Shown here piece by piece: positions 1,012 through 18,471 of a stretch of 64,000 bases of DNA. Under the pieces are notes generated by a model that was not told the DNA's origin, did not search any database, and was given only the letters and a program-made list of their open reading frames with translations. The first letter of the stretch is position 1. Every line of letters begins with the position of its first letter. The translations under genes and the position numbers were made by a program. This DNA is from an uncultured Phycisphaeraceae bacterium. Lineage in GTDB: Bacteria > Planctomycetota > Phycisphaerae > Phycisphaerales > Phycisphaeraceae. The DNA lies in assembly GCA_964425365.1 (NCBI GenBank), contig CAYRND010000001.1, forward strand, positions 1,708-65,707, given 5' to 3'.

Positions 1012-1821
1012 TTAATCCAGGTCATATAGACGGTTGTCCTGACTCAGGAAGCCGCAGTATTCGCCGATCAGCGGCTGTTGGTTCGAGTAGGTGTTGGTGT
1101 GGCGAACTGAGATGGAAGCGGTATGTCCATCGCAGAAGGCGACGTTGGTATGGTTATGATGCCGGTAGCCCTGTGTTCCTGCAGCGCGGGCGCTGAAGCT
1201 ATCGCGTGTTGTGGGTGGTGGAATCCCGGGTACGGCATGGTCGTTTCGGAAAGGTGATCGCATATATTTGTTAGCGCCGTTGATATATTCGCCATCGCCG
1301 AAAATCGCGGTATCGGCGGGGTCGGTGATTTCGCTGTTTCTTGCGGGCGGAACGGTTTTGTCGGGCTGAGCGTCATTGCCGTATCCGCCGATGTAGCTGA
1401 TGTTGTAGTTGTAACCTGTATAAGGGTCGGCTTTGGTATTGCTTTTGCTGTTGTAGGATGGGCATTGGTGTACCTGTTCAGTGGTGGCGTCTTCCATCCA
1501 GAGCAGGCCGGGCGTTACGGTGACCGTTTCCGGCGAAGTGCTCCAGTCGATGTAGGTGGTGAAGTCCCAATCGTGCTGGATTCGCGGTAAGTTGGTGATG
1601 AAATAGGCGAACGGATAGAAATCATTATTGGCCAGATTGTAATGATCTGCAGTCAGGCCGAGCTGTCTGAGGTTATTCAGGCAGACAGCGTTTCTTGCAG
1701 ATTCGCGTGCACTGCCGAGGGCGGGCAGCAGCAGTCCGATCAGCAGTGCGATGATCGCCATCACAACAAGCAGTTCGATGAGTGTGAAGGCATGCATTTG
1801 ATGATTGCCGTTATGTGCCAT
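1012..1821 (-). CDS. Prepilin-type N-terminal cleavage/methylation domain protein, DUF1559 / H-X9-DG family (type II secretion pseudopilin-like)
   Basis: The N-terminus [34 protein letters not shown] is a class III signal/pseudopilin helix. The C-terminal [14 protein letters not shown] fits the H-X9-DG signature. It overlaps the upstream gene by 11 nt. Confidence 0.8.
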
Positions 1822-3040
1822 ATTTGTACTTCATGGTTCTTCGCATGAGTGGAGCAATCATGAAGAGGCAGATGACCGCCGATGCCGGTTCAGGTATTGT
1901 TGTCGTTGCCATGCTTTCGAGCGAATCGGACCGGTCGTAATTGACCAGGACACTGATAAGGTCAACGGCATTGACCTGGCCGTTATTGTCGAGGTCGCCA
2001 TAATATCTACCAGGGTTATCCGATCGGCCGTAACAACTGAGCACCTTTGTGAGGTCGGGTGCATTGACGGATCGGTCCAGGTTCACGTCACCGTCAATAA
2101 GGGCCATGACGTCAGCGACGGCGTCGATTTCAGCCGAGCCGTAATCCGGTCCGTCGATGCGAACGTACTGAATCCAATCGAGTCCGGGGATATCGAGCCA
2201 GTCGAGATCGAACCCGGCCCCGCCGGCCGAGGTTGTGCCTGTGGGTAAGTGCCTGTAGAGCTGAGCATGTTCTGCAACGGTCAGCCCGGCGAGGTCGGCG
2301 AATGATAATGCGGGTTCGACGGGGATGGTGGGGAAGGTGGGCTGGCCCCACCAGAGGTTCCAGTCCCAACTGGTATCTGCGGGATCGTCCGGCCGATACG
2401 GCTCTGACGTGTCGTATTCCCGGCCGAGCGTGGGCGCGAAGTCATCGGCGCACGGGCCGGCGGGGAAGGTATACCACGGTCCGCTTTCGTACTGGCTGAC
2501 TGACACGGTAGCGGGTTCAGCGTTGTACTGACTTGAACCGGTAACGGTATTCGGATCGCCGTTGTCCCACGAGGATACGCTGTCGATGGTGACGCTTGCG
2601 TTACCGAAGATATTGAAGTCGATCCCGTACGGGTTATCAGGATGATTGATGACCGGGTGATCGAATTTAAGGACCAGTCTACCTTGGGGAATTTCAGGTG
2701 AGCCTTGCCCGGCGGGCAGGTAATGGCCGACGGTGACCAGTTCGAAACTGCGGAAGGCGGGATAGACACTGACGACGGGGACCGCCGTATCGATCGGCAT
2801 ACTCCAGCCGGTGCCGGTGGTATCGACGGTCGGCCTGCCGATAGCTGCGGAGGGCTCGGTGAACGGCTCGAACGTGACGTAATCGGGATCGTGTCCCGCG
2901 CCGGGCAGATAATCAATGTATTCGGTTGCGAAATCGGAGGGGTCGAACTGGTACTGGTAATCCGCCGGGCATGGGGGCAGCAGGTTCATGAAAGAACCTG
3001 CTGCCGCGATCGTGGTGATGAGATATTGTCTGAAGGTCAT
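1811..3040 (-). CDS. Secreted PEP-CTERM-anchored protein with dockerin-type Ca-binding repeats
   Basis: The C-terminus [21 protein letters not shown] has the PEP motif, a TM helix and a basic tail. There are two dockerin-like repeats: [19 protein letters not shown] and [17 protein letters not shown]. An N-terminal hydrophobic segment is present. The rest of the protein is unrecognised. Confidence 0.7.
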
Positions 3041-3045
3041 GGCGA

Positions 3046-3573
3046 TTATCCTTGTGAGCGTTTTCTGTTGACAAGTAGAGCGCCCGTGGTGATCAGGACG
3101 GCCAAGGTGTGCGGTTCCGGTACCGGCGTCAGAGCGCTGCCGTAGCGCCAGCCGTCGTAGTAACCGTCGGCGACGATCCGGTCACTGACGCCGATCAGTG
3201 ATGATTCCCATGGATCGAGTTCAGCGTCCTTTGTCCAGTAGTGCCACCAGTCTTCACCGCCGCCGTAGCCGGTGTCGCTGTGCGTATCGAAGCTGATCCC
3301 GTCGATGAATGTGCCGTAGCCGTAATCTTCACGGACAGTGGTAAGGCTGAGTTCCGCCTCGATGATATCGAAGAGTCCGAGTCCGGTGGTAGTGCCGGTG
3401 AAGTTAACGTCGAACAGGTACTGTGCATCATCGCTGAAGTGAAGAGCGAGGTATGCCTGGTTCTCGCCTGTGCCGACTTCGTAGGGGATGATATCTGCCT
3501 GGGCGGTCCGGGTCATTAAGCAGAGGCAGATCAGGACCAATGCAACCAGGGTGTAACGAATCGGTAATGGCAT
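3046..3573 (-). CDS. Small secreted PEP-CTERM protein; a DUF4430/transcobalamin-beta-like domain is suspected (candidate cobalamin-binding protein)
   Basis: The ORF track opens at 3702. However, a signal peptide MPLPIRYTLVALVLICLCLMTRTAQA starts at the ATG at 3573, preceded by AAAAGGAG (3581-3588). The C-terminus VPEPHTLAVLITTGALLVNRKRSQG is a PEP-CTERM anchor. The core GTFIDGISF...EDWWHYWTKD...GVSDRIVADGYYDGWRY resembles the DUF4430 pattern as I remember it. It lies directly downstream of the B12 riboswitch. Confidence 0.65.
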   Translation of the reverse strand: MPLPIRYTLVALVLICLCLMTRTAQADIIPYEVGTGENQAYLALHFSDDAQYLFDVNFTGTTTGLGLFDIIEAELSLTTVREDYGYGTFIDGISFDTHSDTGYGGGEDWWHYWTKDAELDPWESSLIGVSDRIVADGYYDGWRYGSALTPVPEPHTLAVLITTGALLVNRKRSQG

Positions 3574-3739
3574 TACGAAACTCCTTTTGCCCTGTATCGC
3601 GCAGGGCGTCAGCCCCGGGTGTGAATGGAAAAACAACCTATCCTCATGAGGGGAAGCAGGCGTCCTAGAGTCGTTTCGGGGCGTCAACGTGAAGGAGTTC
3701 ATGCCTGGGATTCCTTATCGCGAGGATCCAACCGACGGC

Positions 3740-3952
3740 AGGTTCCAGGCAGGTCTTCCGGCTGAGGGTTTACGTTTCGCTCGGGCCTTCCCGTGGTCAT
3801 GCCCATTGCGGGCGATGCGACAGTGGCCGGTACAGATGAGCGTTACGCCGGTCCCGGTTCGTCCGGGACCACCCATTACGGCGGCGCGTCCGCGGGGGAG
3901 TAGCGGCGATCCGACAGGACGCCGCGCACCCCACTTCCCTTTTCAGGCGAGC
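3740..3952 (-). promoter_or_regulatory. Cobalamin (B12) riboswitch aptamer
   Basis: The minus strand reads ..TGAAAAGGGAAGTGGGGTG.., ..CCGGCCACTGTCGCATCGCCCGCAATGGGCATGACCACGGGAAGGCC.., and the B12 box CAGCCGGAAGACCTGCCTGG (3764-3745). The order and spacing of GGGAA/GGTG, GCCACTG, GGGAAGGC and the B12 box match the Rfam cobalamin family as I know it. An unusually long insertion (about 110 nt) sits between GGTG and GCCACTG. A GCCCTG..CAGGGC hairpin lies just 5' of the AAGGAG of the downstream gene and may be the expression platform. Confidence 0.8.
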
Positions 3953-4212
3953 ATGCCCTTTTAATTCAAAGGTACAAACCGCCAACCTGAAACTTGATTG
4001 TCATCATGTGAGCGTAACCGGTAGCGAGGCAGATGGCAAGACGAGGTTTTTCCGCCTGTGAAGAGGTATTGCGGCAATTCCATGTTTTCAATAGGGTTGT
4101 GATTCAAGGCGGCACTGGCAGAAGCCGGGGATTTCTGTGCGGTGCGGCAGGGACAGTCGCCGGTACTTGAAGGCGGCGTCCCGATTCGTACAATGAAGGG
4201 TCCTGGCAGCAC

Positions 4213-4284
4213 GCGGGTGTAGCTCAGTGGTAGAGCGTCACGTTGCCAACGTGAATGTCGAGGGTTCAAATCCCTTCACCCGCT
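4213..4284 (+). tRNA. tRNA-Gly (anticodon GCC)
   Basis: Hand-folded cloverleaf. Acceptor GCGGGTG/CACCCGC. D arm GCTC-AGTGGTA-GAGC. Anticodon arm TCACG-TTGCCAA-CGTGA, with GCC at 4245-4247. Variable loop ATGTC. T arm GAGGG-TTCAAAT-CCCTT (one G-U pair). Discriminator T. No CCA is encoded. Confidence 0.93.
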
Positions 4285-4925: not shown

Positions 4926-5168
4926 TCAGATGTGCAGGATCATATTAAAGAGGATGAAGTTGAGCAGCACGGCGGCGACTGAGATGAGTCCGGCCAGCAG
5001 CAGGCCGCCGAGATACTGCAGCGGCCGACTCATGCGGATGAGCGGCAGTCGCCGGGTATCGGGAACCTTACCCTGCTGGATCAGTTCCTGTTCGAACTGT
5101 TCTGCGGCGAGCAGTTGCTGCTCTAATTCGAGACGTCTTATCCGGCTGTCGGTATCGTAATCGGGCAT
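4926..5168 (-). CDS. Small tail-anchored membrane protein with an N-terminal coiled-coil-like segment, function unknown
   Basis: 80 aa. RIRRLELEQQLLAAEQFEQELIQQ is followed by the TM segment LQYLGGLLLAGLISVAAVLLNFILF. Its ATG shares one nucleotide with the TGA of the upstream Wzz-like gene (TGATG at 5170-5166). Confidence 0.5.
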   Translation of the reverse strand: MPDYDTDSRIRRLELEQQLLAAEQFEQELIQQGKVPDTRRLPLIRMSRPLQYLGGLLLAGLISVAAVLLNFILFNMILHI

Positions 5169-6598
5169 CAGGAAACACCTGTGAGTTCGCGGCTGGTTTC
5201 GCCTTGCGTTATCTGATTCGTACGGTGGCGTGATCGCAGCTCCTGTATCAGGGCCGTTCGCCTGCGCGTTTCATGATGCTCCAGTGTGAGCACATAAAGC
5301 ACACCCGCGAGCAGGCCGATCACACCGGCGATCAGGACGTTGAGTACGGTAAGCGGGAACACCGGCCGGCGAGGTACGGCCGCAGGTCTGATGACCAGCC
5401 CCGTCGTTTTCATCTGCAGTGAACTGGTGATCAGACGATCGCGAGCGGTTTCGAGTGATTGTCGCAGCATCTTTTTTTGCATGATCCGGTCTTCGAGGTT
5501 TTCGAGCTCGGCCAGGATGCCTGGTACTTTTCGGACAATCCCTTCGGTGACTTTAATGGCTTTTTCCAAGCCCTCGATACGAGCCTGTACACCTGACAGC
5601 TCGACTTTGTACATCATGAGGTTTTCTCTGAGATCGTCATAGAGGGACCCGGTGGTTTTGGATTTACTGCCGACGACCTGGCTCATATGCCTTGCGAGTG
5701 CTTCCTGAGCCCGGCTGTAGCGATGTTGAAGAGAAATCATGTAAGGATGGTCCGGGCTGAGCATGACCTGCTGGCCGGCGATTTCGACTTCGAGCAGATT
5801 GAGCCGTTCCTGCAGCGCTTCGGTCACGGGGTCCTGCAGAATCATTTCACCTTCGAGATACGCCTTGGATTCTTCATCGAGCTGGTCGGTCAGGTTCTTA
5901 ATCCGCTGCTGGTAGGCGCCCTTGTCCATCGCAAGCTGGTCGAGCTGTTTGTGGAAATCGGCTTTTCGCTCTTCGAGCTTTTCGATCATGACCTCGGGGG
6001 AAGCAATGTGATGGCCCTCGCAGAACTGCTTTTTCGATCCGGTAAGCGATTCGATATCGGCGTTGACCTCCTTCAACTGGTTGTTGAGATTCGCCATAGC
6101 GGCGTTCAGATCGTTCTGAATGACATTCTGGTGAAATTCGTTGAATATTTCGATGATCATATTGACGACCTTGGCTGCCAGTTCAGGGTTATGATCCCGT
6201 GCATAGATACGAATAAGCCCTTCTCGCGTCGCGGTGATATCAATGGCGGTTCGGAAGTGCTTAGCCTGTTCCTCGGGCAGGCGGGCGACGACCTGGCGGA
6301 CGGCGTTTGATTCCTGGAGGACGGCGGCGAAGGTACGTGCATGCGCCTGTACGCCGGAGGGCAGTCTGGCCTTGAGATCGGCGATATCGGTTGCATCGTG
6401 TACATCCTGTGGTACGTAGAAGACACCTCTCGCCTCGTATTGCGGCCTGATGGCGAGGCTGATGACACCACTGAGCACTGCGGCGGTAATGGTCATGAAC
6501 AGTATCATTCCACGCCGCCGGTAGAGGGCGGAGGTGTAATCTTCGAGCCGGTACTCGAAGGGAACGGTTTCGGTCGTATCAGTGGTTTTGTTGTTCAT
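5168..6598 (-). CDS. Polysaccharide chain-length determinant (Wzz/GumC-like PCP, no kinase domain)
   Basis: An N-terminal TM (MILFMTITAAVLSGVISLAI), a long coiled-coil periplasmic region and a C-terminal TM (VLNVLIAGVIGLLAGVLYVL). I prefer the start MNNKTT at 6598 over the track start at 6649. It could belong to the PEP-CTERM-locus chain-length subfamily; this was not tested. Confidence 0.75.
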   Translation of the reverse strand: MNNKTTDTTETVPFEYRLEDYTSALYRRRGMILFMTITAAVLSGVISLAIRPQYEARGVFYVPQDVHDATDIADLKARLPSGVQAHARTFAAVLQESNAVRQVVARLPEEQAKHFRTAIDITATREGLIRIYARDHNPELAAKVVNMIIEIFNEFHQNVIQNDLNAAMANLNNQLKEVNADIESLTGSKKQFCEGHHIASPEVMIEKLEERKADFHKQLDQLAMDKGAYQQRIKNLTDQLDEESKAYLEGEMILQDPVTEALQERLNLLEVEIAGQQVMLSPDHPYMISLQHRYSRAQEALARHMSQVVGSKSKTTGSLYDDLRENLMMYKVELSGVQARIEGLEKAIKVTEGIVRKVPGILAELENLEDRIMQKKMLRQSLETARDRLITSSLQMKTTGLVIRPAAVPRRPVFPLTVLNVLIAGVIGLLAGVLYVLTLEHHETRRRTALIQELRSRHRTNQITQGETSRELTGVS

Positions 6599-8036
6599 AG
6601 TCAATACCGTTTCTTTTCGCCAAGGCATGGAACACGCAGAGGGAGCCACCTGCCATACCCATATACAGCCATGAGACGAAGTTATCGTAAGCGGGTTCGA
6701 AGCACAGGTGAATTGCCAGCGCGGTCATGGCGAGGAACATGGCTTTGCAGGTTGCTTTGGTACGCGTATCAGGTGACCGCAGAGCACGGATCGCCAAAGC
6801 GGCGGTTAGGTAAATAACGAGTGATGCGAGCGTCGCGCCTGCGACGACGCCCATTTCGGCGGCGGTCTGGAGGTAGGCGTTATGGACGGGTGTGGGCAGT
6901 ACCCGGCCGACATTTCTCAGGCCTAGCCCGAACAGGGGATGGGTCCGGATGGCTTCCAGGCCCACGCGGATGAATTCGATCCGGTCGCCGTAGCCCCGGC
7001 CGCCGATGGCGAGCACCACATGTTGAATGAGCCAGTCCATCCCACCGGTAATGAAGAGAACGAGTCCGAGCAGTGCGATGGCGGCGGAATATTGCAAGGC
7101 GTATTGCGGCCTGTGCATATACAGGCCGACAAGCAGTACGGCCGCGGCGGTCAGGTAGGCGCCGATACTGAAGGTCATACCGATTGCCGCCAGCAGTGCG
7201 AGGCAGGACAGTATTCGTGTGTGCCGGGCCATGTCGGCAAAGAGTGTCAGGCCGAGTGCCAGCAGCATGAGATGTGCGAAGCTCTGCGGCGTAGTCATGA
7301 ACCCGGTGACGCGTAGCATCATGCCGAACGGCGTTTGCTTGTGATGAAATTCCGCGGCGTCATCGAAGGTGAACTCGATACCGGTGGCGAGGTAGAGGCA
7401 CTCACTGAAGATACCCACTGCGGCGGCGACCAAGGCAATATAGAGAAAGCACCTGACGGCAAAGCGTTGTCTGTCCGCCGTATTGATCAGGTTCGTTACG
7501 AGGAACATGACCATAATTTTGCTGAGCATCTGATGCTGGGTGATGATACTGATCATCAGGCCGTTGATGATGGACGCCAGCGAGCAGGCGGCCAGTACGG
7601 CGAGCATGATCATGATGGTGATGTCGGTGGCGATGCGTCGGTGTTCGATCAGCATGACCGCGATCCAGAACGACAGTACTATGAGGAACGCCAGATCGGT
7701 CGGATCGAGCCGACTTATATTGACTCCGGAGATGGCACCGGCGAAGATGAGCAGTGCGATGGCGATATTGAATCGATGTCGGAACAGTTCATATTGATAT
7801 CGTAGGCAGGTATAAGCGGCGAGTATGACAAAAATGACAGCGGCGGTAACGGCGGCGAGTCCGCTGTTGAAACCTGTTCCGAACAGTGTCAGGTGATATT
7901 GCACGGCGGTCATGGGGCCGAGCGTGATAGCGGCGGCGATGGCGGTTGTCACGATAAATGCGAAAACCGCATCGCGTGAGGTCAACGTGCCGAAGCCTCG
8001 TGTTTCGGGATGCGTATGATTGGCTGTCACTTCCAA
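6579..8036 (-). CDS. O-antigen ligase / Wzy-type polymerase family membrane protein
   Basis: 485 aa and polytopic (10 or more hydrophobic helices). It has a Wzy_C-like loop ..GLGLRNVGRVLPTPVHNAYLQTAAEMGVVAG... Confidence 0.75.
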   Translation of the reverse strand: MEVTANHTHPETRGFGTLTSRDAVFAFIVTTAIAAAITLGPMTAVQYHLTLFGTGFNSGLAAVTAAVIFVILAAYTCLRYQYELFRHRFNIAIALLIFAGAISGVNISRLDPTDLAFLIVLSFWIAVMLIEHRRIATDITIMIMLAVLAACSLASIINGLMISIITQHQMLSKIMVMFLVTNLINTADRQRFAVRCFLYIALVAAAVGIFSECLYLATGIEFTFDDAAEFHHKQTPFGMMLRVTGFMTTPQSFAHLMLLALGLTLFADMARHTRILSCLALLAAIGMTFSIGAYLTAAAVLLVGLYMHRPQYALQYSAAIALLGLVLFITGGMDWLIQHVVLAIGGRGYGDRIEFIRVGLEAIRTHPLFGLGLRNVGRVLPTPVHNAYLQTAAEMGVVAGATLASLVIYLTAALAIRALRSPDTRTKATCKAMFLAMTALAIHLCFEPAYDNFVSWLYMGMAGGSLCVFHALAKRNGIDYEQQNH

Positions 8037-8101
8037 CTACCTGATTGACGGTGTCAATAACACTATGCAAAAACCGTCGCCGCAGTTCGGCCGGGTTTCG
8101 A

Positions 8102-9289
8102 TCAATCGCAGGCAGGCTCCACACCGGTATGCCGGCTGCGTTTGCAGTTCAAAGCGAGTTCGTACAGGAACTTATCATATTTTACAATCATCCGGTCGAC
8201 ATTGAAACAGGCGAGTGCCCGTCTGCAGCCCTCGTTGCCCATTTTTCTGGCGGATTCGGGATCCCGGATCATACGGCCGAGGGCATCGGCAATTGCCTGA
8301 GGATCACGTGGCGGGACGAGCAGGCCGGTTTTTCCCTCCTGTACGACTTCGGGGATACCATCGACGCGAGTGGCGACGATGGGCAGGTTCCTCGACATGG
8401 CTTCCACCAGAACCATGCCGAAGCTTTCCCAGAGTGAAGCGAGGCAGAATATATCAAGTCCCCACATGAGTCGTGTCACATCGTTTCGCCAGCCGGTGAA
8501 GATGACGGAGGATGTGATGCCCAGGTTGTCAGCGTGTGTTTCCAGTTCAGGTTTAAGCGGGCCGTCGCCCATGATTACGAACCGTAGGTCATTCCGGTTC
8601 CGGCAGAGGATAGCGGCTGCTTCGAGCAGGTAGCTTAATCCTTTCTGCGTTTCACAACGTCCGGCGGTGCCGATGACAATGTCGGTCTCTTCGAGTCCGA
8701 GTTCACGTCGGATGGCGCGTCGGTCGGCCGGCTCGGCCTGATCGATTTCGACTGAGTTGTAAATGACATCGACCTTGTCGGGTTTCATGATGCCTGTGTT
8801 TCGGCCGTATTCCTTCATTGCGTTCGATACGGCCACGTACTTCGTGGTGGGCAGGTCCATTGCGCGTTCGATCCAGTGATAGATGATTCGCGTGAGCCAT
8901 ATCTGATTGGGATGGGAAGCGTAGACCTGAAGGATCATGACGCGAACAGGCACGCCGGTAAGCCATGCTGCAACGCGACCGAGCAGGCCGGCGATGGAGC
9001 ATTCCATACAGACCATCTGGAATCGCTCCTGCTTCATCAGTCGGCAGATTTCGAAGAACCCTCTGATGTTGGTCAGTGGGTTCAGTTTTCTTGACATGGT
9101 GAGTATATGAACGGGGATATCAAGCTGTTTGAACTGGTCGTCAAGTACGTAGCCGGGGCTGAACGCGGCGGTAAGCTCGAACCGGTCCCGCGGCAGATAT
9201 CGTGCCAGGTAATACGCATGGAGTCCAGCGCCGCCGGCGGTACTGGTAATCAGTAGTAACGTTTTAATTGTCTGCTTTCTCTCTTCCAC
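8102..9289 (-). CDS. Glycosyltransferase, GT4 (GT-B fold)
   Basis: N-terminal ITSTAGGAGLHAY, and the C-terminal EX7E region ESFGMVLVEAMSRNLPIVATRVDGIPEVVQEGKTGLLV. Confidence 0.85.
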   Translation of the reverse strand: MEERKQTIKTLLLITSTAGGAGLHAYYLARYLPRDRFELTAAFSPGYVLDDQFKQLDIPVHILTMSRKLNPLTNIRGFFEICRLMKQERFQMVCMECSIAGLLGRVAAWLTGVPVRVMILQVYASHPNQIWLTRIIYHWIERAMDLPTTKYVAVSNAMKEYGRNTGIMKPDKVDVIYNSVEIDQAEPADRRAIRRELGLEETDIVIGTAGRCETQKGLSYLLEAAAILCRNRNDLRFVIMGDGPLKPELETHADNLGITSSVIFTGWRNDVTRLMWGLDIFCLASLWESFGMVLVEAMSRNLPIVATRVDGIPEVVQEGKTGLLVPPRDPQAIADALGRMIRDPESARKMGNEGCRRALACFNVDRMIVKYDKFLYELALNCKRSRHTGVEPACD

Positions 9290-9295
9290 GATGAT

Positions 9296-10513
9296 TTACA
9301 CCTGTTTCGGGTTTGGTTGTCTGTGGTTCTGAATTAGATTCCGGTAAAGATAATCGAGTCGTTCGCCGAGCAACTGTCCGCTGCAATGTCTGCGAACGAA
9401 ACTCGGGCCATCTGCGAGAGCGTTTACGTGCAGATTCGTATTGTCGAGTGCCTTCGCCAGCGTATTGGCGAGAGGCACTATTTCGGGCGTATCAATGAGC
9501 AGGCCGGTCTGATCGTGTTGTATCAGTTCAGGGATGCCGCCGGTCCGCGTCGCAACGACGGCGACGCCGGTAGCGAGTGCCTCGATAACCACAACGCCGC
9601 AAGGCTCGCCCCAGACGGAAGGTACGGCAACGACTCGCGAACGTTGGTAGAACCCAGGCAGCTCCGAATGCGTTATTGTACCACAGAACCGTACATTTCG
9701 ACCGAGATTCAGATGTTTAACGCAATTCTTGCACTGGTTGATATACGAGCCGTGTTCAGTGCCGCCCGTTTCCGGTCCGATGATATGGAGTTTGATTTCA
9801 GGCCGGTCCTGGGCGAGTATACCAATCGCCTTGATCAGTTCCATGACGCCCTTTTCGGCTGCAATACGTCCGACGAAGAGGATATCGATCTCCTTTCGGC
9901 AATTCCTGTCGGGCTTGAAAAGCTGTAGATCAACGACATTAGGGATAATACTTATCCGTGATGAATCAAATTTGTGGTGGTTTTGGATAGCGTCATGGAT
10001 AAAGCGGCTGATGGCGACGAGGTGATCGGTATGGGTAGCGATGAACCGGTCGACGACTCTGCCGCAGGCTGCCGCTGCCCACCGCAGTCCGAATGCGGGG
10101 TAAGCCATTGCTTCGGCCGCTTTCCAGTTATGCACGTGGTAGACGTTGATCCAGGGGTCACGTCGGAACAACCCTGTCGCCGTCATCAGGAGACAGGGGT
10201 AGCGGTAATGATGATGCACGATATCGGGTTTCAGGTCACTGCATTGTTTTCGGGCGAGACGGCTGAATGTATAGACGTTTTTCAGCATGGCGGTCATGCT
10301 TGTACAGCGGTGGCTTTCACCTGTCAGTTGATGATAGGTAGCGTTTTCGTGATTGCGAGTTCGCGTGGTATTGTCAGGTGCGACGGTCATGACATGTATG
10401 TCGTGTCCGCGTTCGGCCAATGCGCGTATCTGTTCACGGACCTGCGATTCGATACCGCCGGTGGTGTACTCCGGTAGTGAATGCAGGTTGGTTGATACGA
10501 TACAAATTCGCAT
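9296..10513 (-). CDS. Glycosyltransferase, GT4 (GT-B fold)
   Basis: MRICIVSTN..TTGGIESQV, and GEPCGVVVIEALATGVAVVATRTGGIPELIQHDQTGLLI. Confidence 0.85.
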   Translation of the reverse strand: MRICIVSTNLHSLPEYTTGGIESQVREQIRALAERGHDIHVMTVAPDNTTRTRNHENATYHQLTGESHRCTSMTAMLKNVYTFSRLARKQCSDLKPDIVHHHYRYPCLLMTATGLFRRDPWINVYHVHNWKAAEAMAYPAFGLRWAAAACGRVVDRFIATHTDHLVAISRFIHDAIQNHHKFDSSRISIIPNVVDLQLFKPDRNCRKEIDILFVGRIAAEKGVMELIKAIGILAQDRPEIKLHIIGPETGGTEHGSYINQCKNCVKHLNLGRNVRFCGTITHSELPGFYQRSRVVAVPSVWGEPCGVVVIEALATGVAVVATRTGGIPELIQHDQTGLLIDTPEIVPLANTLAKALDNTNLHVNALADGPSFVRRHCSGQLLGERLDYLYRNLIQNHRQPNPKQV

Positions 10514-10525
10514 GGCGTTTTCGTT

Positions 10526-11596
10526 TCAGGGGGTATCGGTCATGGCGATGTTCGCCCGTTCCGGTTGAAAGGTATTGTGATGAGGTATCCGTGTCAGGCC
10601 GGTGAGATACTTGATCTGTTTGCCCAGCCCATGCAGCCGTGCGAGCGTCAGGCCCTGTCTGACCGGGTGGTCGCGAGTGAGCCATCGGCAGAATCGGCCG
10701 GGGATCGAACAGTGAGTCAGTGCCGGCGGAGTTTCATTCAGTTCATCGAGGTATGAGCGTGCGGCGTGGTTATAAGGAGAGAGTTCGAAAGTCAGTTGAT
10801 TGTAATAAGCTCGCGGATTACCGCACCAGTTTGTCTGCGGCCGGACATCCCATATTTTCGGTTCCGCTCCGTGCAGGAGAGGCGGGACATGTTCGCGGCC
10901 GCACCGCCTGCGTTCGGTTGCCGTGAAGCCCGCCGGTCCGACACATTGAGCGATTTCACTGCCGCGTCGGATGGTATGAAGCGGGATATGGCTGAACGCT
11001 TTGGATCCGACCAGTGCGGTGAGAACATCCTGATCGCCCTGGAGGTGGATGGGTCTGACGGCCATCGGGTGGATCGTCTGCGCTTTGCGGTAACAGGGCA
11101 GTTCCAGCATTTCCCGCCAGGCCATCAGCAACTCGCGATGCGAGGGTGTCACGCGTATGACACCGCTGCTGAGTGTCGCCGTCAGTCGGCGCCCGACGTC
11201 GAGGCCCCACAGTTCCGTGCGGATGCTGCCCCCGGGATGGCGGTCCCAGTCCCATGCTTCCGAGACGACCAGATCCTGATCGTTTCGATTCGTGAAGAAT
11301 CTGCGGATATCACTTGTGAGGATGATATCGGAGTCGAGCCAGATCAGTTCATGATGTCCTTCGTCGAGCAGTCTGAGCAGCAGGCTGGGTTTGACATCCC
11401 AGCCGTGTGTGGTGAAGTCGGGATCATATCGCATGTCGGCATGTGGGAATCTGTTGAGCCATGACGTGAACCCGGGCGCCTTGGCCGGATAGCTGATCAG
11501 AACCTGCACGCCCGGGCAATGCCGGTTGATACTCAGTACGAGCAGTTTCATACCGAGCAATGCTTTCGGGCGGTTGTCGTAGGTGCAGATCAGCAT
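10526..11596 (-). CDS. Putative nucleotide-diphospho-sugar transferase (GT-A-like, GT8-like)
   Basis: A DxD-like motif WLDSDIILTSD, and an N-terminal Rossmann-like strand MLICTYDN. This is only a weak family assignment made by eye. Confidence 0.5.
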   Translation of the reverse strand: MLICTYDNRPKALLGMKLLVLSINRHCPGVQVLISYPAKAPGFTSWLNRFPHADMRYDPDFTTHGWDVKPSLLLRLLDEGHHELIWLDSDIILTSDIRRFFTNRNDQDLVVSEAWDWDRHPGGSIRTELWGLDVGRRLTATLSSGVIRVTPSHRELLMAWREMLELPCYRKAQTIHPMAVRPIHLQGDQDVLTALVGSKAFSHIPLHTIRRGSEIAQCVGPAGFTATERRRCGREHVPPLLHGAEPKIWDVRPQTNWCGNPRAYYNQLTFELSPYNHAARSYLDELNETPPALTHCSIPGRFCRWLTRDHPVRQGLTLARLHGLGKQIKYLTGLTRIPHHNTFQPERANIAMTDTP

Positions 11597-12909
11597 GTGG
11601 AATGCATCCTGTTTACAGGTTCTGATTCCTTCTGTCCCAGTGACGAGCGGATGATGTCCAGCTCACTTCGCATCAGGTGTTCCCAGTTCAATTCACGGCT
11701 TTCCCGTACCGCGTTATGGATCATTCGCTGTCGTTCATGATCGTTATCAAGTATTCGGCAGATTGCCTGTTCGATCGCTGGTGTCTGGTCGGGAATGACC
11801 AGTCCGCAGTCGAACCGGCGGACCATATCACCGGCTTCGGTATCATCCGTTGCGATGACGGGCATGGCGGCGGCCATGTACTCGATGACCTTCAGTGGGC
11901 AGGCGTATTGTCTGAACGGAACAGGCCGGGAGTTCGCCAACCCGATGTGTCCATCGGCCAGGATATCGGGAATCCGGTGATTGCTTATCGATCCGAGGAA
12001 TCGGCAGTATTGTTGCAGGTTCATTGAATCGACAAGAGTCTTAAGGCAGGCTTCGTAAGCGGGCAGTGCTTTTCCGATAATCAGAAGTCTCACCTGCGGG
12101 TGCCGGTTGATGACGGCGGGCAGTGCCCGTATGGTCTGTTCGAGTCCGCTCCAGTGGACGATGTTGCCGACGTAGACGAGGTTGGCGCCCGGTGTCTTAT
12201 TTGTTCGTGCGGTTTCGAACCGTTGCCAGTTCACACCTGTGGGGATGTAATGGATTGTGCGAGGTGTTTGTGACTGCCGCAGCGCGATGAGCCTTCTGCT
12301 GTTTGCAACGACCTGTTTTGCCCGTCGGATCATCTGCGATTCGAGCCATGCGGTAAAGCGGAACCGTAGTCCTTCGGGCATCAGTGCGGCTTCATAGTCG
12401 CGGTCTTCGTAAACGAGCAAATCGACCCGGTTCATCTTCCGCAGCAGCCATGCAACGGCACTACCCCAGGGGCCGAAGCCGACGGCGGCATGATACCGTC
12501 CTCGCAGGCAGAAAAATGAGGCAATCAGAAAGCAGGGAATCACAAACACAAGCCTCAGTCCGGCCAGTCCGGCCAGCCATCGGATGAGGCGGTATTTCAG
12601 ATTCAATCGTGCCGGGTTCGCGTGTACACCGGCCCGGGCATTGGTGCCCAGGCCGCCGAAGTAATTGAAGAAGGGATCAACCCGGATCATCGTCAGGTCA
12701 ACCTGTTTCCGGCGTCGGCACGACATGGTGATGCAGTCCATGGCCATCTGCCATTTCCGGGTCGACCGGTTAGTGACTTTGTACATGACAGTCACCTCAC
12801 AGCCCAGGGCGTGATATTCTCTGGCCATGTTATGTTCACGGTTGTTCCACGCATCGGTGTAATCGAGAGGCGTAATAAGAAGTATCCGCAGGGGTGATCG
12901 TGTGTTCAT
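11590..12909 (-). CDS. Glycosyltransferase, GT4-like, with an internal hydrophobic insertion
   Basis: LRILLITPLDY..; the C-terminal PLKVIEYMAAAMPVIATDDTEAGDMV; and a hydrophobic segment LAGLAGLRLVFVIPCFLIASFFCL. The start at 12909 gives an ATGA overlap with the upstream stop, whereas the track start is 12939. Confidence 0.75.
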   Translation of the reverse strand: MNTRSPLRILLITPLDYTDAWNNREHNMAREYHALGCEVTVMYKVTNRSTRKWQMAMDCITMSCRRRKQVDLTMIRVDPFFNYFGGLGTNARAGVHANPARLNLKYRLIRWLAGLAGLRLVFVIPCFLIASFFCLRGRYHAAVGFGPWGSAVAWLLRKMNRVDLLVYEDRDYEAALMPEGLRFRFTAWLESQMIRRAKQVVANSRRLIALRQSQTPRTIHYIPTGVNWQRFETARTNKTPGANLVYVGNIVHWSGLEQTIRALPAVINRHPQVRLLIIGKALPAYEACLKTLVDSMNLQQYCRFLGSISNHRIPDILADGHIGLANSRPVPFRQYACPLKVIEYMAAAMPVIATDDTEAGDMVRRFDCGLVIPDQTPAIEQAICRILDNDHERQRMIHNAVRESRELNWEHLMRSELDIIRSSLGQKESEPVNRMHSTC

Positions 12910-14165
12910 GGCGTTTTCACCTCCGCGTGTTTCACACATCGCTGATACAGATCAGTCATGAGATGGAGGTGGTGATCCGGGCTGTATAGCTTTTCGACCG
13001 AATGTTTTGCGTTTTCACCCAGTTGTGACCGGACCGTATCGTTGCGGATGAGTGTGCGTAATGCCTCTGCAAGAGCGTCGACATCGCCGTGTTCCACCAT
13101 CAGGCCGTTGACGTTATCGATCAGCCACTGGCTGATACCCCCGGCATTGAACGCGACGACGGGTCTGGCGAACGACATGGCCTCGATGCCCGCCAGTCCG
13201 AATGACTCGGGTATCAGTGACGGCATGACGAGCAACGAGCATGACGCATAGGCTGTTTGAAGTTCGTCGGCGTTCAGTTCGCCTGTAAATTGGACACGGT
13301 TCTGAAGTCGGTACAGATGGACTTGCTGTTTCGCCTCGTCCAGTAGCGGGCCGTCGCCGATGATTTCCGCGGTCCATGACTCGCCGCCGATCCGGTAGAA
13401 GGCGTCGATCAGTTTCAATATGCCTTTTTCGGGAATCAATCTTCCTGTGAAGAGAATGCGGCATGGCTGGTTGCTATTCTTTGCGGTCGCTTTGATGCCG
13501 GCGAACCGTGAATAGTTCGGAATAACCACGACTTGTCTTTCATCCATACCGTTGACGATACACTGCGATTTCAAATAGGCGCTGGGTACAATCACTGCTT
13601 TTGCGCATCGCATTGCATGGATATGAAGTGGTTGGGCAGCCACGCGGAGCAGGTCGGTCGCCGGCGGGGATAGTCTGCCGATCCGGTAACAACCGCTGGT
13701 GAGGCATCCCAGACCCGCCGGCCTGTCGCAAATCACGCCGTCGGGTAGAAGCTTGGTCTGGTTGAAGCACAGAGATGTGACGTCGTGTAGTGTGCAGACG
13801 ACGGGTACCCACCGGCTGAGCCGGCTGATCAGAGTGGGATGCGTTGCGTAGTAGATGGAATGGATATGGACGAGGTCGGGATTTTCGGTGTGAACAATTC
13901 GCCGGAGTTGCGAATACGTTCGCCGGCCGTTGCGATAGCTCAGCTTGCCGATGCGATAATGGCCTTCGTTGTTGTTGTGGAGCTGGTCGACCGAGATGGT
14001 ATCGGTGATTCGAACGGTGACGACCTCGATCCCCTGTCGCCGGAGAGCATGTACCAGTCCGTCCAGGTAGACACCGATACCACCGCCAGCCATCGCCTGG
14101 GCCTGTATCCGGCCGTTGGTGTGGGAGAAATCGATCGGTTTGGAATAGAGTTGAAGTACTTTCAT
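12906..14165 (-). CDS. Glycosyltransferase, GT4 (GT-B fold)
   Basis: MKVLQLYSK..GGGIGVYL, and ESFGLAGIEAMSFARPVVAFNAGGISQWLIDNVNGLMV. The start at 14165 gives an ATGA overlap with the upstream stop, whereas the track start is 14216. Confidence 0.85.
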   Translation of the reverse strand: MKVLQLYSKPIDFSHTNGRIQAQAMAGGGIGVYLDGLVHALRRQGIEVVTVRITDTISVDQLHNNNEGHYRIGKLSYRNGRRTYSQLRRIVHTENPDLVHIHSIYYATHPTLISRLSRWVPVVCTLHDVTSLCFNQTKLLPDGVICDRPAGLGCLTSGCYRIGRLSPPATDLLRVAAQPLHIHAMRCAKAVIVPSAYLKSQCIVNGMDERQVVVIPNYSRFAGIKATAKNSNQPCRILFTGRLIPEKGILKLIDAFYRIGGESWTAEIIGDGPLLDEAKQQVHLYRLQNRVQFTGELNADELQTAYASCSLLVMPSLIPESFGLAGIEAMSFARPVVAFNAGGISQWLIDNVNGLMVEHGDVDALAEALRTLIRNDTVRSQLGENAKHSVEKLYSPDHHLHLMTDLYQRCVKHAEVKTP

Positions 14166-15031
14166 GGCATTGCGTGTACTCGTGTCATCAGCGATTCGAA
14201 CGCCGCCGGGGTACATTCGTAAAACGCCTCGAAGTATCCTCTGCCGCGTCCGAAATAGATCGATCGGTATGCAGACAGTCCTTCCATTGCACGGATGTAA
14301 TCAATTCGGCGGGTCTGGCTTTCGAAGCATGCGAGTGCCTCTCGCTTACGGTCGATCAGGTTGCCGATATCAATCAGTCTGTTGGCGTGCAGCGGCGACC
14401 AGACTTCGTATCCGCGAAGCAGGCAATTGTTTGTCCGGCTCAGGCCGGCAATGTGCAGGGCGGCGGCGAGAATGCGATTCGTCGTCCAGTGATCGTCATG
14501 GCTGTCCATGACGGACGGATGGTAGATCAGTTGCGGCTTGTGCTGTGAGAGCCACCGGGCCAGTGTCTGGATGTATTGTTCCGTGGGTGCCAGATTTCCG
14601 TCGGGTCCGTCGAGGAAAACCAGTTCGTTGATATCCATCACACGAGCTGCGTTGTGAGCTTCCTGTTTGCGGGTACGTATCAGTGCCTTTTCAGCCTGGT
14701 GGATGGCCGATTCGGCCAGGTTGGTTGTGTACAGGTCGGGATCGCCTTTCGATCCATCGGTCAGGTAGATGACGGTGACGGCCGCGCCGGCCTGCCGGTG
14801 ATGCATGACGGCGCCACCGCAGCCGATGGTTTCGTCATCCATATGCGGCGCGAGGACAAGTACGGTATTCGCATGGAATTGAGAGATCATAACGGGCGGC
14901 TTATCGCGTTCATCGAGCAGCAGAGCCAGCCGGATATGGTTCTTAACGCCCCGCGGCACGAGCGTGCGGTAAGTTAATCGAACCAGGATTCGCAGCAGTC
15001 GTTTCATCGTCTTTTCGTGGTCATCTATCAA
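14162..15031 (-). CDS. PIG-L / LmbE family N-acetyl-sugar deacetylase
   Basis: VLAPHMDDETIGCGGAV (the AHPDDE-type metal site), and a second motif SVMDSHDDHWTT (HxDH). Confidence 0.8.
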   Translation of the reverse strand: MIDDHEKTMKRLLRILVRLTYRTLVPRGVKNHIRLALLLDERDKPPVMISQFHANTVLVLAPHMDDETIGCGGAVMHHRQAGAAVTVIYLTDGSKGDPDLYTTNLAESAIHQAEKALIRTRKQEAHNAARVMDINELVFLDGPDGNLAPTEQYIQTLARWLSQHKPQLIYHPSVMDSHDDHWTTNRILAAALHIAGLSRTNNCLLRGYEVWSPLHANRLIDIGNLIDRKREALACFESQTRRIDYIRAMEGLSAYRSIYFGRGRGYFEAFYECTPAAFESLMTRVHAMP

Positions 15032-15045
15032 GGCCGTTCGCCGGG

Positions 15046-18462: not shown

Positions 18463-18471
18463 AATGGCAAA

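What the first reader, a model, noticed from the sequence alone, without database searches (positions are those of the whole stretch)
3046..3573. Candidate exosortase-anchored cobalamin-binding protein
After signal-peptide removal the mature protein is about 150 aa. It ends in a textbook PEP-CTERM anchor (VPEP, TM helix, RKR). Its core (GTFIDGISF..GGGEDWWHYWTKD..IGVSDRIVADGYYDGWRY) fits my memory of the DUF4430 pattern, a fold related to the transcobalamin/intrinsic-factor beta domain (G.fi..I.G....yW.y.v....G......dGd...w.y). Its position as the first gene after the B12 riboswitch independently supports a corrinoid-related role. I do not know of a described case of a B12-binding domain on a PEP-CTERM anchor.
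Basis: inference. Interest (0 to 1): 0.6.

Follow-up and report, generated by a model that had tools for sequence, protein, structure and literature searches.

The report
Surface-anchored vitamin B12 capture protein
This small exported protein is predicted to fold like the B12-gripping half of human transcobalamin, carries a PEP-CTERM sorting tail, and is the first gene behind the genome's only vitamin-B12 riboswitch, so it is most likely part of an undescribed B12-scavenging cassette of planctomycete-type (PVC) bacteria.

Summary
A 175-aa gene on the minus strand (3573 to 3046) has a signal peptide, a roughly 120-aa domain and a PEP-CTERM tail. It lies 157 nt behind a cobalamin riboswitch (3731-4005).

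The Pfam DUF4430 model does not detect it. In the PDB Foldseek search, the 15 best matches to a confident AlphaFold model are transcobalamin, intrinsic-factor and haptocorrin beta domains and the DUF4430 protein 3U7Z. A profile-profile comparison with canonical DUF4430 proteins gives 87% probability.

Context is the strongest evidence:
- This is the only B12 riboswitch in a 96%-complete genome.
- That genome has B12-dependent enzymes but no hits for CbiC, CobS or any TonB-dependent receptor.
- In 60 of 66 related loci from other species, the same riboswitch precedes the same gene.
- The gene is usually followed by the same two partners, a beta-rich dockerin protein and a DUF1559 pseudopilin.
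- BtuFCD genes are sometimes adjacent.
- Gene 1 and gene 2 are fused, in either order, in many species.

I read it as a divergent transcobalamin-like corrinoid binder in a B12-repressed capture cassette. Binding itself is untested. Two earlier follow-ups of this scan reported the same type of cassette on other DNA.

The parts
3731..4005 (-). Cobalamin riboswitch aptamer (RF00174). It is the only one found in the whole genome.
   Evidence: cmscan 64.7 bits against a gathering score of 31.5, E=1.1e-13. It is the single match in the 3.88-Mb genome.
3574..3730 (-). Expression platform and 5' leader. In the minimum-free-energy fold, AACUCCUU (about 3701-3694) pairs with the Shine-Dalgarno AAGGAGUU just before the ATG, so this may be a translational OFF switch.
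   Evidence: Sequence and MFE fold. The fold energy is no better than that of shuffled sequences (z=-0.08), so this is inference only. No intrinsic terminator was found on this strand.
3046..3573 (-). Gene 1, the finding: a 175-aa exported protein with a transcobalamin-beta / DUF4430-like (SLBB) domain and a PEP-CTERM tail. The stop codon is at 3046-3048.
3496..3573 (-). Signal peptide, aa 1-26 (MPLPIRYTLVALVLICLCLMTRTAQA|D).
   Evidence: Read from the sequence. Modelled as a helix with low pLDDT. Homologues share a variable hydrophobic N-terminus.
3130..3495 (-). Ligand-binding-type beta-grasp domain, aa 27-148. It carries the family signature FIDGI..GHS..GYGGGEDWWHYW...W.S..G..DR.V.DG..DGW.YG.
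   Evidence: pLDDT is mostly above 90. The best Foldseek hits are 3U7Z and the transcobalamin beta domains 5NP4 and 5NO0. hhalign to DUF4430 covers 101 columns. Invariant residues are listed.
3049..3126 (-). PEP-CTERM sorting signal, aa 150-175 (VPEP + HTLAVLITTGALLV + NRKRSQG).
   Evidence: TIGR02595 18.5 bits, above the cut-off of 16. P152/E153/P154 are invariant in 34 homologues. The genome has four exosortase genes.
1811..3040 (-). Gene 2: a 409-aa exported partner. It has a conserved beta-rich core (aa ~35-310) with no confident known fold match, a dockerin-like EF-hand pair (aa ~317-365) and a PEP-CTERM-like tail (IPEP..RR). It starts 5 nt after the gene 1 stop.
   Evidence: Orthologues are 41-47% identical and sit in the same position in 50 other loci. 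AF2 pLDDT is 86.6. Foldseek finds only the dockerin confidently (2Y3N, TM 0.84). The HMM search of the PDB finds dockerins only. It is fused to gene 1 in 21 genome loci and in further database proteins, in both orders.
1012..1821 (-). Gene 3: a 269-aa prepilin-type pseudopilin (cleavage and methylation motif HA|[12 protein letters not shown]1559, weak HX9DG). It overlaps the end of gene 2 by 11 nt.
   Evidence: PF07963 scores 29.7 bits and PF07596 scores 26.3 bits, both above their cut-offs. TIGR02532 is passed. A tblastn match in the same position occurs in 55 other loci, strong (38-71% identical) in about 45 of them. The genome has one prepilin peptidase and four secretins.

Best explanation
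Gene 1 encodes a secreted corrinoid-binding protein. Its core is a divergent member of the transcobalamin-like clade of the SLBB beta-grasp superfamily, a sister family of Pfam DUF4430.

Proposed sequence of events:
1. When intracellular cobalamin is low, the riboswitch lets the three-gene cassette be expressed. When cobalamin is high, the aptamer probably hides the ribosome-binding site.
2. Gene 1 protein is exported by Sec. Its PEP-CTERM tail is recognised by one of the four exosortases, which leaves the ~120-aa domain attached at the cell envelope or surface.
3. There it captures cobalamin or other cobamides together with the beta-rich core of gene 2. The two are fused into one polypeptide in many species, which suggests a two-domain clamp analogous to the alpha and beta domains of transcobalamin.
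4. The gene 3 pseudopilin links the pair to a type II secretion / type IV pilus-like apparatus and secretin, or otherwise helps pass the vitamin inwards.
5. A BtuF/BtuC-type ABC importer, encoded elsewhere in this genome and adjacent in other species, takes the vitamin across the inner membrane.

Shown here: the gene, the fold prediction, the remote homology, the riboswitch, the conserved cassette, the fusions and the genome's B12 dependence.

Inferred: corrinoid binding, exosortase processing, surface location, the clamp with gene 2 and the role of the pseudopilin.
For: Fold. The AF2 model has pLDDT 86 and pTM 0.74. Foldseek PDB ranks 1-15 are exclusively 3U7Z (DUF4430) and transcobalamin, intrinsic-factor or haptocorrin beta domains. 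They include 5NP4, the isolated human beta domain with cyanocobalamin bound (TM 0.66). Probability is 0.99-1.00 for these and at most 0.63 for the next hits. The order of secondary-structure elements, two strands, a helix, a beta-hairpin and three strands, fits the hairpin insert that defines the transcobalamin-like clade (Burroughs 2007, PMC1796856).

Homology. hhalign of 190 family domains against 19 canonical DUF4430 sequences gives 87% probability and P=4e-6 over 101 columns. The reversed control gives 0.1%.

Regulation. The riboswitch scores 64.7 bits and is the only one in the genome. A riboswitch lies upstream on the same strand in 5 of 5 metagenome loci and in 60 of 66 species-genome loci.

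Context. The order gene 1, gene 2, gene 3 is found in 47 loci. BtuF/C/D-like genes are adjacent in about 10, and CobA/BtuR is nearby in L004.

Fusions. Gene 1 and gene 2 are fused in frame in 21 of 74 loci. Among database proteins both orders occur.

Need. The genome has 8 B12-binding-domain hits, including a 1191-aa open frame whose size would fit methionine synthase MetH (my guess, not checked). It has no hit for CbiC, CobS or TonB-dependent receptors at 96% completeness.

Machinery. The genome has 4 exosortases, 4 secretins and 1 prepilin peptidase, and BtuF + BtuC on contig C102.
Against: - No binding data exist for this family or, as far as I could find, for any bacterial DUF4430 protein.
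- The Pfam DUF4430 HMM does not detect the protein, and no PDB sequence or profile hit exists.
- Foldseek E-values are modest (2e-3 to 3e-2), and sequence identity to transcobalamin is 9-18%.
- The family's most conserved block (GHS..GYGGGEDWWHYW) has no counterpart in canonical DUF4430, so the ligand could differ.
- SLBB domains also bind polysaccharide-related ligands, and an L. sakei preprint that mentions 'transcobalamin-like' concerns haem uptake (I saw only its abstract).
- The gene 2 core has no known B12-binding relative.
- TonB-dependent receptors occur in 21 of 40 cassette-bearing genomes, so the cassette is not simply a BtuB substitute.
- PEP-CTERM proteins have never been shown experimentally to be surface-attached in these phyla.
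- The Shine-Dalgarno-sequestering fold is not statistically distinguishable from shuffled sequences.
Confidence: 0.65

Rival explanations
1. Same fold and same B12-responsive regulation, but a different job. Under this reading the cassette is a B12-starvation-induced adhesion or envelope-remodelling module. The dockerin, the CBM-like beta-sandwich and the pilin would attach the cell to B12-producing neighbours or to matrix polysaccharide. The SLBB domain of gene 1 would bind a glycan or another tetrapyrrole rather than a corrinoid.
For: - Other SLBB clades act on polysaccharide or DNA at the cell surface (Wza-type exporters, ComEA; PMC1796856).
- The weak Foldseek hits of gene 2 are carbohydrate-binding modules, lectins and laminin-type domains, and it carries a dockerin.
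- PEP-CTERM proteins are classically linked to exopolysaccharide loci, and an EPS locus lies next door in the window.
- The conserved WWHYW block is not found in canonical DUF4430.
Against: - The closest structural matches are specifically the transcobalamin-type clade, not the Wza/ComEA clade.
- BtuFCD importer genes sit directly beside the cassette in several species.
- As general knowledge, cobalamin riboswitches control B12 transport, B12 synthesis or B12-independent isozymes. I know of no case where one controls an adhesin.
- The genome needs imported B12 and has no other riboswitch-marked uptake locus.
Confidence: 0.15
2. A corrinoid binder, but not a surface one. The PEP-CTERM-like tail would act as a plain C-terminal membrane anchor, or be cleaved to release the domain into the periplasm. 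Gene 1 and gene 2 would then work inside the periplasm as a relay or store feeding BtuF, and exosortase would play no part.
For: - The tail is below the Pfam PEP-CTERM cut-off in this member.
- No exosortase gene lies in or next to the cassette in the window, nor was one listed among the genes of the loci inspected.
- In the 21 fused versions the PEP-CTERM of gene 1 is dispensable.
- PVC bacteria can have enlarged periplasms (general knowledge).
Against: - TIGR02595 is passed.
- P-E-P is invariant across unfused homologues, which argues for recognition by a sorting enzyme and not just for a membrane helix.
- Four exosortases are present.
- Gene 2 carries its own PEP-CTERM or dockerin tail, both typical of extracytoplasmic surface display.
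Confidence: 0.15
3. A chance or decaying ORF behind an orphan riboswitch, with no function.
For: None beyond the lack of any annotation. Sources name its relatives only 'hypothetical protein' or 'PEP-CTERM sorting domain-containing protein'.
Against: - There are 291 homologous clusters.
- 17 columns are invariant across 34 homologues.
- The fold prediction is confident.
- Synteny and the riboswitch are conserved in dozens of species.
Confidence: 0.02

Closest known systems
Beta (C-terminal) domain of transcobalamin, intrinsic factor and haptocorrin: the transcobalamin-like clade of the SLBB beta-grasp superfamily (Burroughs et al. 2007, PMC1796856)
   Same: - Predicted fold: Foldseek ranks 2-15, with TM 0.62-0.66 on the isolated beta domain 5NP4/5NO0.
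- A beta-grasp with a hairpin after the helix.
- An extracytoplasmic protein.
- A link to B12 acquisition.
   Different: - Only 9-18% identical, with no sequence-level hit.
- No alpha/alpha-toroid partner domain. The partner is instead an unrelated beta-rich protein (gene 2).
- It has a family-specific GHS..GYGGGEDWWHYW block.
- It is bacterial, PEP-CTERM-tailed and riboswitch-controlled.
Bacterial and archaeal DUF4430 proteins (Pfam PF14478), for example RUMGNA_00854 of Ruminococcus gnavus (PDB 3U7Z) and the LPXTG-anchored versions of Firmicutes
   Same: - 3U7Z is the best structural hit (E=2e-3, TM 0.68).
- Profile-profile homology at 87%.
- A small signal-peptide protein.
- The 2007 paper already predicted a B12-scavenging role at the cell surface and noted members in planctomycetes.
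   Different: - It is not detected by the PF14478 HMM.
- It uses a different anchor: PEP-CTERM instead of LPXTG, or no anchor.
- It has different partners. The published contexts are CbiO/CbiQ-type transporter operons. Here the partners are a dockerin protein and a pseudopilin.
- The canonical DUF4430 genes in the window's own phylum often lie next to TonB-dependent receptor genes.
BtuG, BtuH and BtuJ surface lipoproteins of Bacteroides (PMC8941943; bioRxiv 10.1101/2025.08.21.671476)
   Same: The functional logic is the same: accessory, extracytoplasmic B12 binders encoded in riboswitch-regulated loci together with btuFCD, used to scavenge cobamides.
   Different: - Their folds are unrelated: a beta-propeller, the BtuH globular domain, and DUF4465.
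- No DUF4465 is found in this genome, and BtuH (7BIZ) is not among my top 50 Foldseek hits for gene 2.
- They are lipid-anchored, not PEP-CTERM-tailed.
- They work with the TonB-dependent BtuB, which this genome lacks.
Competence DNA-uptake machinery: the ComEA SLBB receptor plus the ComG pseudopilus (analogy only)
   Same: - An SLBB-domain ligand receptor is encoded together with a prepilin-type pseudopilin.
- A ComF-like gene (DZR_2 + phosphoribosyltransferase) follows gene 3 in 19 loci.
   Different: - It belongs to a different SLBB clade and binds a different ligand.
- There is no ComEC.
- The ComF-like neighbour is absent from this window, and its position may reflect synteny only.

Membership tests
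Pfam DUF4430 (PF14478) | Match to the family HMM at or above the gathering score (23.8 bits) | tested here: not met
   There is no hit at E<=1 for the protein. There is none at E<=10 in a six-frame scan of the genome. Only 1 of 34 homologues reaches E=0.23.
Pfam DUF4430 (PF14478) | Remote homology to bona fide members (profile against profile) | tested here: met
   hhalign of 190 family domains against 19 planctomycete-type DUF4430 sequences that pass the Pfam cut-off gives probability 87% and P=4e-6 over 101 collinear columns. The reversed control gives 0.1%. The smaller alignment A1 against A3 gives 41% and P=2.8e-4.
[quoted passage not shown] | Beta-grasp fold matching the transcobalamin, intrinsic-factor or haptocorrin beta domain | tested here: met
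   Foldseek PDB ranks 1-15 are all of this clade, at probability 0.99-1.00 and TM 0.62-0.69 normalised on the isolated domains. The model has pLDDT 86. This rests on a prediction, not on an experimental structure.
[quoted passage not shown] | [quoted passage not shown] | tested here: inconclusive
   In the model's secondary structure, helix 64-74 is followed by strands 78-83 and 88-95 and then by three more strands, which fits the insert. I could not superpose coordinates or map the residue that stacks on the base.
[quoted passage not shown] | Two superfamily-conserved glycines | tested here: inconclusive
   G64 (after strand 2) and G92 (FIDGI, aligned to the SIDGV glycine of DUF4430) are invariant. 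Their equivalence to the published positions is inferred from the hhalign alignment only.
[quoted passage not shown] | Binds cobalamin or another corrinoid | not testable with these tools
   This needs purified protein. Only contextual support exists.
PEP-CTERM / exosortase substrates (TIGR02595, PF07589) | C-terminal PEP motif + TM helix + basic cluster recognised by the family model | tested here: met
   TIGR02595 scores 18.5 bits against a cut-off of 16, at residues 194-216 of the 218-aa frame, which is the extreme C-terminus. PF07589 scores only 11-13 bits against 20.7 for this member, but all 34 homologues hit it, with a best E of 6.5e-7. P-E-P is invariant.
PEP-CTERM / exosortase substrates (TIGR02595, PF07589) | An exosortase is encoded in the same genome | tested here: met
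   There are four PF09721 matches of 121-165 bits on contigs C22, C3, C163 and C16.
PEP-CTERM / exosortase substrates (TIGR02595, PF07589) | Actual cleavage and attachment by exosortase | not testable with these tools
   There are no proteomic or genetic data.
Cobalamin riboswitch regulon (RF00174) | A riboswitch above the gathering score, upstream on the same strand, conserved in orthologous loci | tested here: met
   The window scores 64.7 bits. Rfam hits are found in 5 of 5 metagenome loci and in 7 of 13 weak or unclear loci. An nhmmer profile hits 55 further loci. In total that is 60 of 66 species loci that have upstream DNA.
DUF4465 / BtuJ and BtuH B12-binding domains (considered for gene 2) | HMM or structural match | tested here: not met
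   PF14717 has no match at E<=10 in the genome. No Pfam family covers the gene 2 core in 30 orthologues. 7BIZ and 8BLW are not among the top 50 Foldseek hits.

The most novel reading that the evidence does not exclude
The three genes may form a new kind of outer-envelope vitamin importer. Gene 1 (the SLBB domain) and the beta-rich core of gene 2 would together make a 'split bacterial transcobalamin' that clamps a cobamide at the cell surface. The dedicated gene 3 pseudopilin would then hand the loaded binder, or the vitamin, through a secretin-type channel into the periplasm by a type II secretion / type IV pilus-like piston. That would make this a TonB-independent route for B12 in PVC bacteria such as this one, which has no TonB-dependent receptor at all. 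It would be mechanistically analogous to ComEA plus the competence pseudopilus in DNA uptake.
Probability: 0.2. Interest if true: 0.85.

Novelty: new variant of a known kind. Interest (0 to 1): 0.62.

Why it matters
Most bacteria that need vitamin B12 cannot make it. The known ways of catching it at the cell surface are BtuB with TonB, the Bacteroides BtuG/H/J lipoproteins and ECF-CbrT. These do not explain how PVC bacteria that lack TonB-dependent receptors obtain it.

This family supplies a concrete, testable candidate. It is a small, easily expressed domain predicted to share the fold of the human B12 carriers. It sits under direct B12 control and has two conserved partners of unknown function.

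- If binding is confirmed, the transcobalamin-type B12 grip would be shown to work in free-living bacteria with a different partner domain.
- The PEP-CTERM/exosortase system would gain one of its first substrates with a defined ligand.
- One member of the poorly understood DUF1559 pseudopilin family of Planctomycetota would be linked to a specific nutrient.
- About 290 clusters of 'hypothetical' proteins in environmental metagenomes could be annotated.

Tried and rejected
Direct family assignment
- Pfam, NCBIfam and PDB sequence or profile searches found only the PEP-CTERM tail.
- A Pfam DUF4430 scan of the whole genome found nothing.

Residue-level mapping onto transcobalamin contacts
- The canonical DUF4430 profile reaches 3U7Z only at E=0.029 and does not reach transcobalamin.

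Gene 2 as a known B12 binder
- I could not reproduce it. It is not in the Foldseek top 50, there is no PDB profile hit other than dockerin or EF-hand, no Pfam family covers the core, and there is no DUF4465.

Cassette as a substitute for TonB-dependent uptake
- This holds for this genome.
- Elsewhere, 21 of 40 cassette-bearing genomes do have TonB-dependent receptors, so I rejected it as a general rule.

Riboswitch next to canonical DUF4430 genes of the window's phylum
- None was found within 1.5 kb in 16 loci. The loci are too short for this to be conclusive.

Expression platform
- No intrinsic terminator was found.
- A Shine-Dalgarno-sequestering pairing is seen, but the fold is no more stable than shuffled sequences.

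Transcription evidence

Literature
- Searches for DUF4430, PEP-CTERM with cobalamin riboswitch, DUF1559 with cobalamin, and Planctomycetes with B12 riboswitch found no description of this cassette.
Full report
**1. The observation**

The finding's coordinates hold a real gene on the minus strand. The ATG is at 3573 and the TAA stop at 3048-3046, giving 175 aa. A longer frame opening at 3702 exists. The 3573 start is preferred for two reasons: it has an AAAGGAG Shine-Dalgarno sequence 6 nt upstream, and it matches the N-termini of 33 aligned homologues.

The protein has three parts:
- a signal peptide ending in AQA|D;
- a domain of about 120 aa;
- the tail VPEP-HTLAVLITTGALLV-NRKRSQG.

The tail passes NCBIfam TIGR02595 (18.5 bits against a cut-off of 16). 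It falls below the Pfam PF07589 cut-off in this particular member. P-E-P is invariant in all 34 aligned homologues.

Rfam finds a cobalamin riboswitch (RF00174, 64.7 bits against a gathering score of 31.5) at 3731-4005 on the same strand, 157 nt upstream of the ATG.

Two more genes follow tightly. A 409-aa gene (3040-1811) starts 5 nt after the stop. A 269-aa gene (1821-1012) overlaps the end of that one by 11 nt.

**2. Is the domain transcobalamin / DUF4430-like?**

PF14478 gives no hit for the protein. It gives none at E<=10 anywhere in the genome. Only 1 of 34 homologues reaches E=0.23. Sequence and profile searches of the PDB also find nothing.

The structural test succeeds. An AlphaFold2 model built on the 34-sequence alignment, without templates, has mean pLDDT 86 and is mostly above 90 in the domain. 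Foldseek against the PDB returns these as its 15 best hits, at probability 0.99-1.00:
- the DUF4430 protein 3U7Z (E=2e-3, TM 0.68 on the target);
- transcobalamin, intrinsic-factor and haptocorrin entries;
- among them the isolated human transcobalamin beta domain with and without cyanocobalamin (5NP4, 5NO0; TM 0.62-0.66).

From rank 16 on, the hits are generic ubiquitin/UBX beta-grasp proteins at probability 0.63 or less.

To test homology rather than shape, I took canonical DUF4430 proteins that pass the Pfam cut-off from genomes of the window's phylum. I compared profiles. With 190 family domains against 19 DUF4430 sequences, hhalign gives 87% probability and P=4e-6 over 101 collinear columns. 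The reversed control gives 0.1%. The smaller tool-built alignments give 41% and P=2.8e-4.

The alignment places FIDGI on SIDGV, WWHYW on the W.Y..NG strand, and DGW.YG on GD..W.Y.

The model's element order is two strands, a helix, a hairpin and three strands. [quoted passage not shown]

My conclusion is that the domain is a divergent sister family of DUF4430 inside the transcobalamin-like SLBB clade. It is not a Pfam DUF4430 member in the strict sense.

**3. Context**

The family is sizeable: 291 clusters at 50% identity match at E<=1e-3. A pattern scan of one genome per GTDB species returned 70 loci. Nearly all are labelled Planctomycetota (Phycisphaerae, Sedimentisphaerales, Phycisphaerales and Pirellulales-type bins), and one is Kiritimatiellae.

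Riboswitch association:
- Five metagenome loci all carry an RF00174 riboswitch directly upstream.
- Among the 66 species loci with upstream DNA, an nhmmer profile built from four Rfam-validated aptamers finds the riboswitch upstream on the same strand in 55.
- Rfam confirms it in five more.
- The six loci without it hold the most divergent homologues (31-34% identity). These also lack the partner genes.

Partner genes:
- Orthologues of gene 2 (41-47% identity) occur in 50 of the 74 comparison loci outside the window. tblastn matches to gene 3 occur in 55, strong (38-71% identical) in about 45 of them.
- The commonest order is gene 1, gene 2, gene 3, found in 47 loci.
- The Kiritimatiellae locus has riboswitch, gene 2, gene 3, gene 1.

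B12 transport neighbours:
- BtuF/BtuC/BtuD-like genes are adjacent in about ten loci.
- A CobA/BtuR gene is nearby in one.

Fusions:
- In 21 loci, gene 1 loses its PEP-CTERM tail and is fused in frame to gene 2, sometimes with two copies of the gene 1 domain.
- Among database proteins, fusions occur in both orders.
- Tandem arrays of 2-5 copies of the gene 1 domain also exist.

Fusion in both orders is classical evidence that two proteins act as one unit.

**4. The host genome**

The assembly is 3.88 Mb and 96% complete. This riboswitch is the only cobalamin riboswitch in it.

| Feature searched | Result |
|---|---|
| B12-binding domain (PF02310) | 8 hits, including a 1191-aa open frame (size would fit MetH; not checked) |
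| CbiC | no hit |
| CobS | no hit |
| TonB-dependent receptor | no hit |
| BtuF + BtuC pair | present on contig C102, without a riboswitch |
| Exosortases | 4 |
| Secretins | 4 |
| Prepilin peptidase | 1 |
| DUF1559 pseudopilins | about 5, the best-scoring being gene 3 |

The organism therefore needs imported B12 and lacks the usual outer-membrane transporter. The only locus it places under B12 control is this cassette.

This last point does not generalise. 21 of 40 other cassette-bearing genomes do encode TonB-dependent receptors.

**5. The partners**

Gene 2 models confidently (pLDDT 86.6). It has a beta-rich core (~35-310), a dockerin-like EF-hand pair and a PEP-CTERM-like tail. Only the dockerin finds a confident match: 2Y3N at TM 0.84, and dockerin HMM hits down to 5e-8. 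No Pfam family covers the core in 30 orthologues.

I could not reproduce that here.

Gene 3 is a prepilin-type protein with N_methyl, DUF1559 and weak HX9DG matches.

**6. Mechanism**

The best-supported reading runs as follows.
1. B12 scarcity derepresses the cassette. A pairing between AACUCCUU and the Shine-Dalgarno sequence suggests translational control, but it is not statistically supported.
2. Gene 1 protein is exported and sorted by its PEP-CTERM tail.
3. Together with the gene 2 core it binds cobamides outside the cytoplasmic membrane.
4. The pseudopilin couples this to a pilus or secretin apparatus.
5. BtuFC(D) completes import.

Shown here: the sequence features, the predicted fold, the remote homology, the riboswitch, the synteny, the fusions and the host's B12 dependence.

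Inferred: ligand binding, exosortase processing, surface exposure, the two-domain clamp and any pilus-driven transport.

Rivals are a different ligand or an adhesion role, and a periplasmic rather than surface location. A chance ORF is excluded.

**7. What is known**

Burroughs et al. (2007) defined the SLBB superfamily. They noted transcobalamin-like members in low-GC Gram-positives and planctomycetes, often with signal peptides and LPXTG anchors. They predicted B12 scavenging. That paper mentions neither riboswitches nor PEP-CTERM, and describes no pseudopilin partner for this clade.

Full-text searches found no paper describing DUF4430 function in bacteria or this cassette.

The Bacteroides BtuG/H/J proteins are functional analogues with unrelated folds and a TonB-dependent core.

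Two earlier follow-ups of this scan (e1-916523, e1-2168804) reached a similar reading on other genomes. I treated them as leads only.

**8. Verdict**

It is a new, Pfam-invisible variant of the transcobalamin-like B12-binding domain. It has a new anchor type and new partners, under direct B12 control, and is widespread in PVC bacteria. Biochemical proof is lacking.

Noticed in passing
L001:8424-9200 and the equivalent position in 18 other loci (e.g. L017, L020, L022, L029, L032, L041, L046-L050, L063, L072): A ComF-like gene (double zinc ribbon DZR_2 + phosphoribosyltransferase) directly follows the pseudopilin gene in 19 loci, at 49-76% identity. In the window's genome the only homologue is elsewhere, on contig C90. 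This could be plain synteny, or a functional link to a competence-like uptake apparatus.
   Followed up: partly
Own genome, contig C158:5800-6354 (minus strand), outside the window: A second, stand-alone paralogue of gene 1 (184 aa, PEP-CTERM tail, profile E=1.7e-21). It has no riboswitch and no gene 2 or gene 3 neighbours.
   Followed up: partly
Genomes of the window's phylum: G087:C55, G132:C1 (3.859-3.861 Mb), G032:C1 (3.969-3.971 Mb), G169:C3, G112:C35, G186:C125: Canonical Pfam DUF4430 genes (about 130-150 aa) lie within 0.3-2.3 kb of TonB-dependent receptor genes, which suggests an accessory role at a BtuB-like transporter. No cobalamin riboswitch was found within the 1.5-kb flanks I held.
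   Followed up: partly
L034:7974-8108 (minus strand): A second riboswitch-like hit (nhmmer E=1.2e-13) faces a BtuF/BtuD/BtuC-like gene group a few kb downstream of the cassette. In that species the cassette and the ABC importer seem to have separate B12 switches.
   Followed up: no
L037, L040, L043, L053 and proteins P0078, P0049, P0057, P0071, P0123: Tandem arrays of 2-5 copies of the gene 1 domain occur in one polypeptide. P0123 also has immunoglobulin I-set domains. These are multivalent versions of the putative binder.
   Followed up: no
window 5168-20088 and 21836-47220 (minus strand): The cassette sits beside a large exopolysaccharide-type locus and four giant ORFs of 1864-2227 aa. The locus includes a possible Wzz-like chain-length determinant and O-antigen-ligase-like membrane protein (labels by eye), and other ORFs that earlier notes of this scan call glycosyltransferases. 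Those notes also describe the giant ORFs as an NRPS/PKS assembly line. I did not examine any of these.
   Followed up: no
window 4213-4284 (+): A tRNA gene (75.5 bits) lies divergently just upstream of the riboswitch. It marks the likely 5' limit of the cassette's promoter region.
   Followed up: no
Window's phylum versus cassette distribution: Only 4 of 201 sampled genomes of the window's own phylum carry the family, and 70% of that phylum has TonB-dependent receptors. Most carriers in the species collection are labelled Planctomycetota. The window's organism may therefore belong to a neighbouring PVC lineage (Kiritimatiellia- or Lentisphaeria-like), and the cassette may have moved between PVC phyla. 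I did not test this.
   Followed up: no
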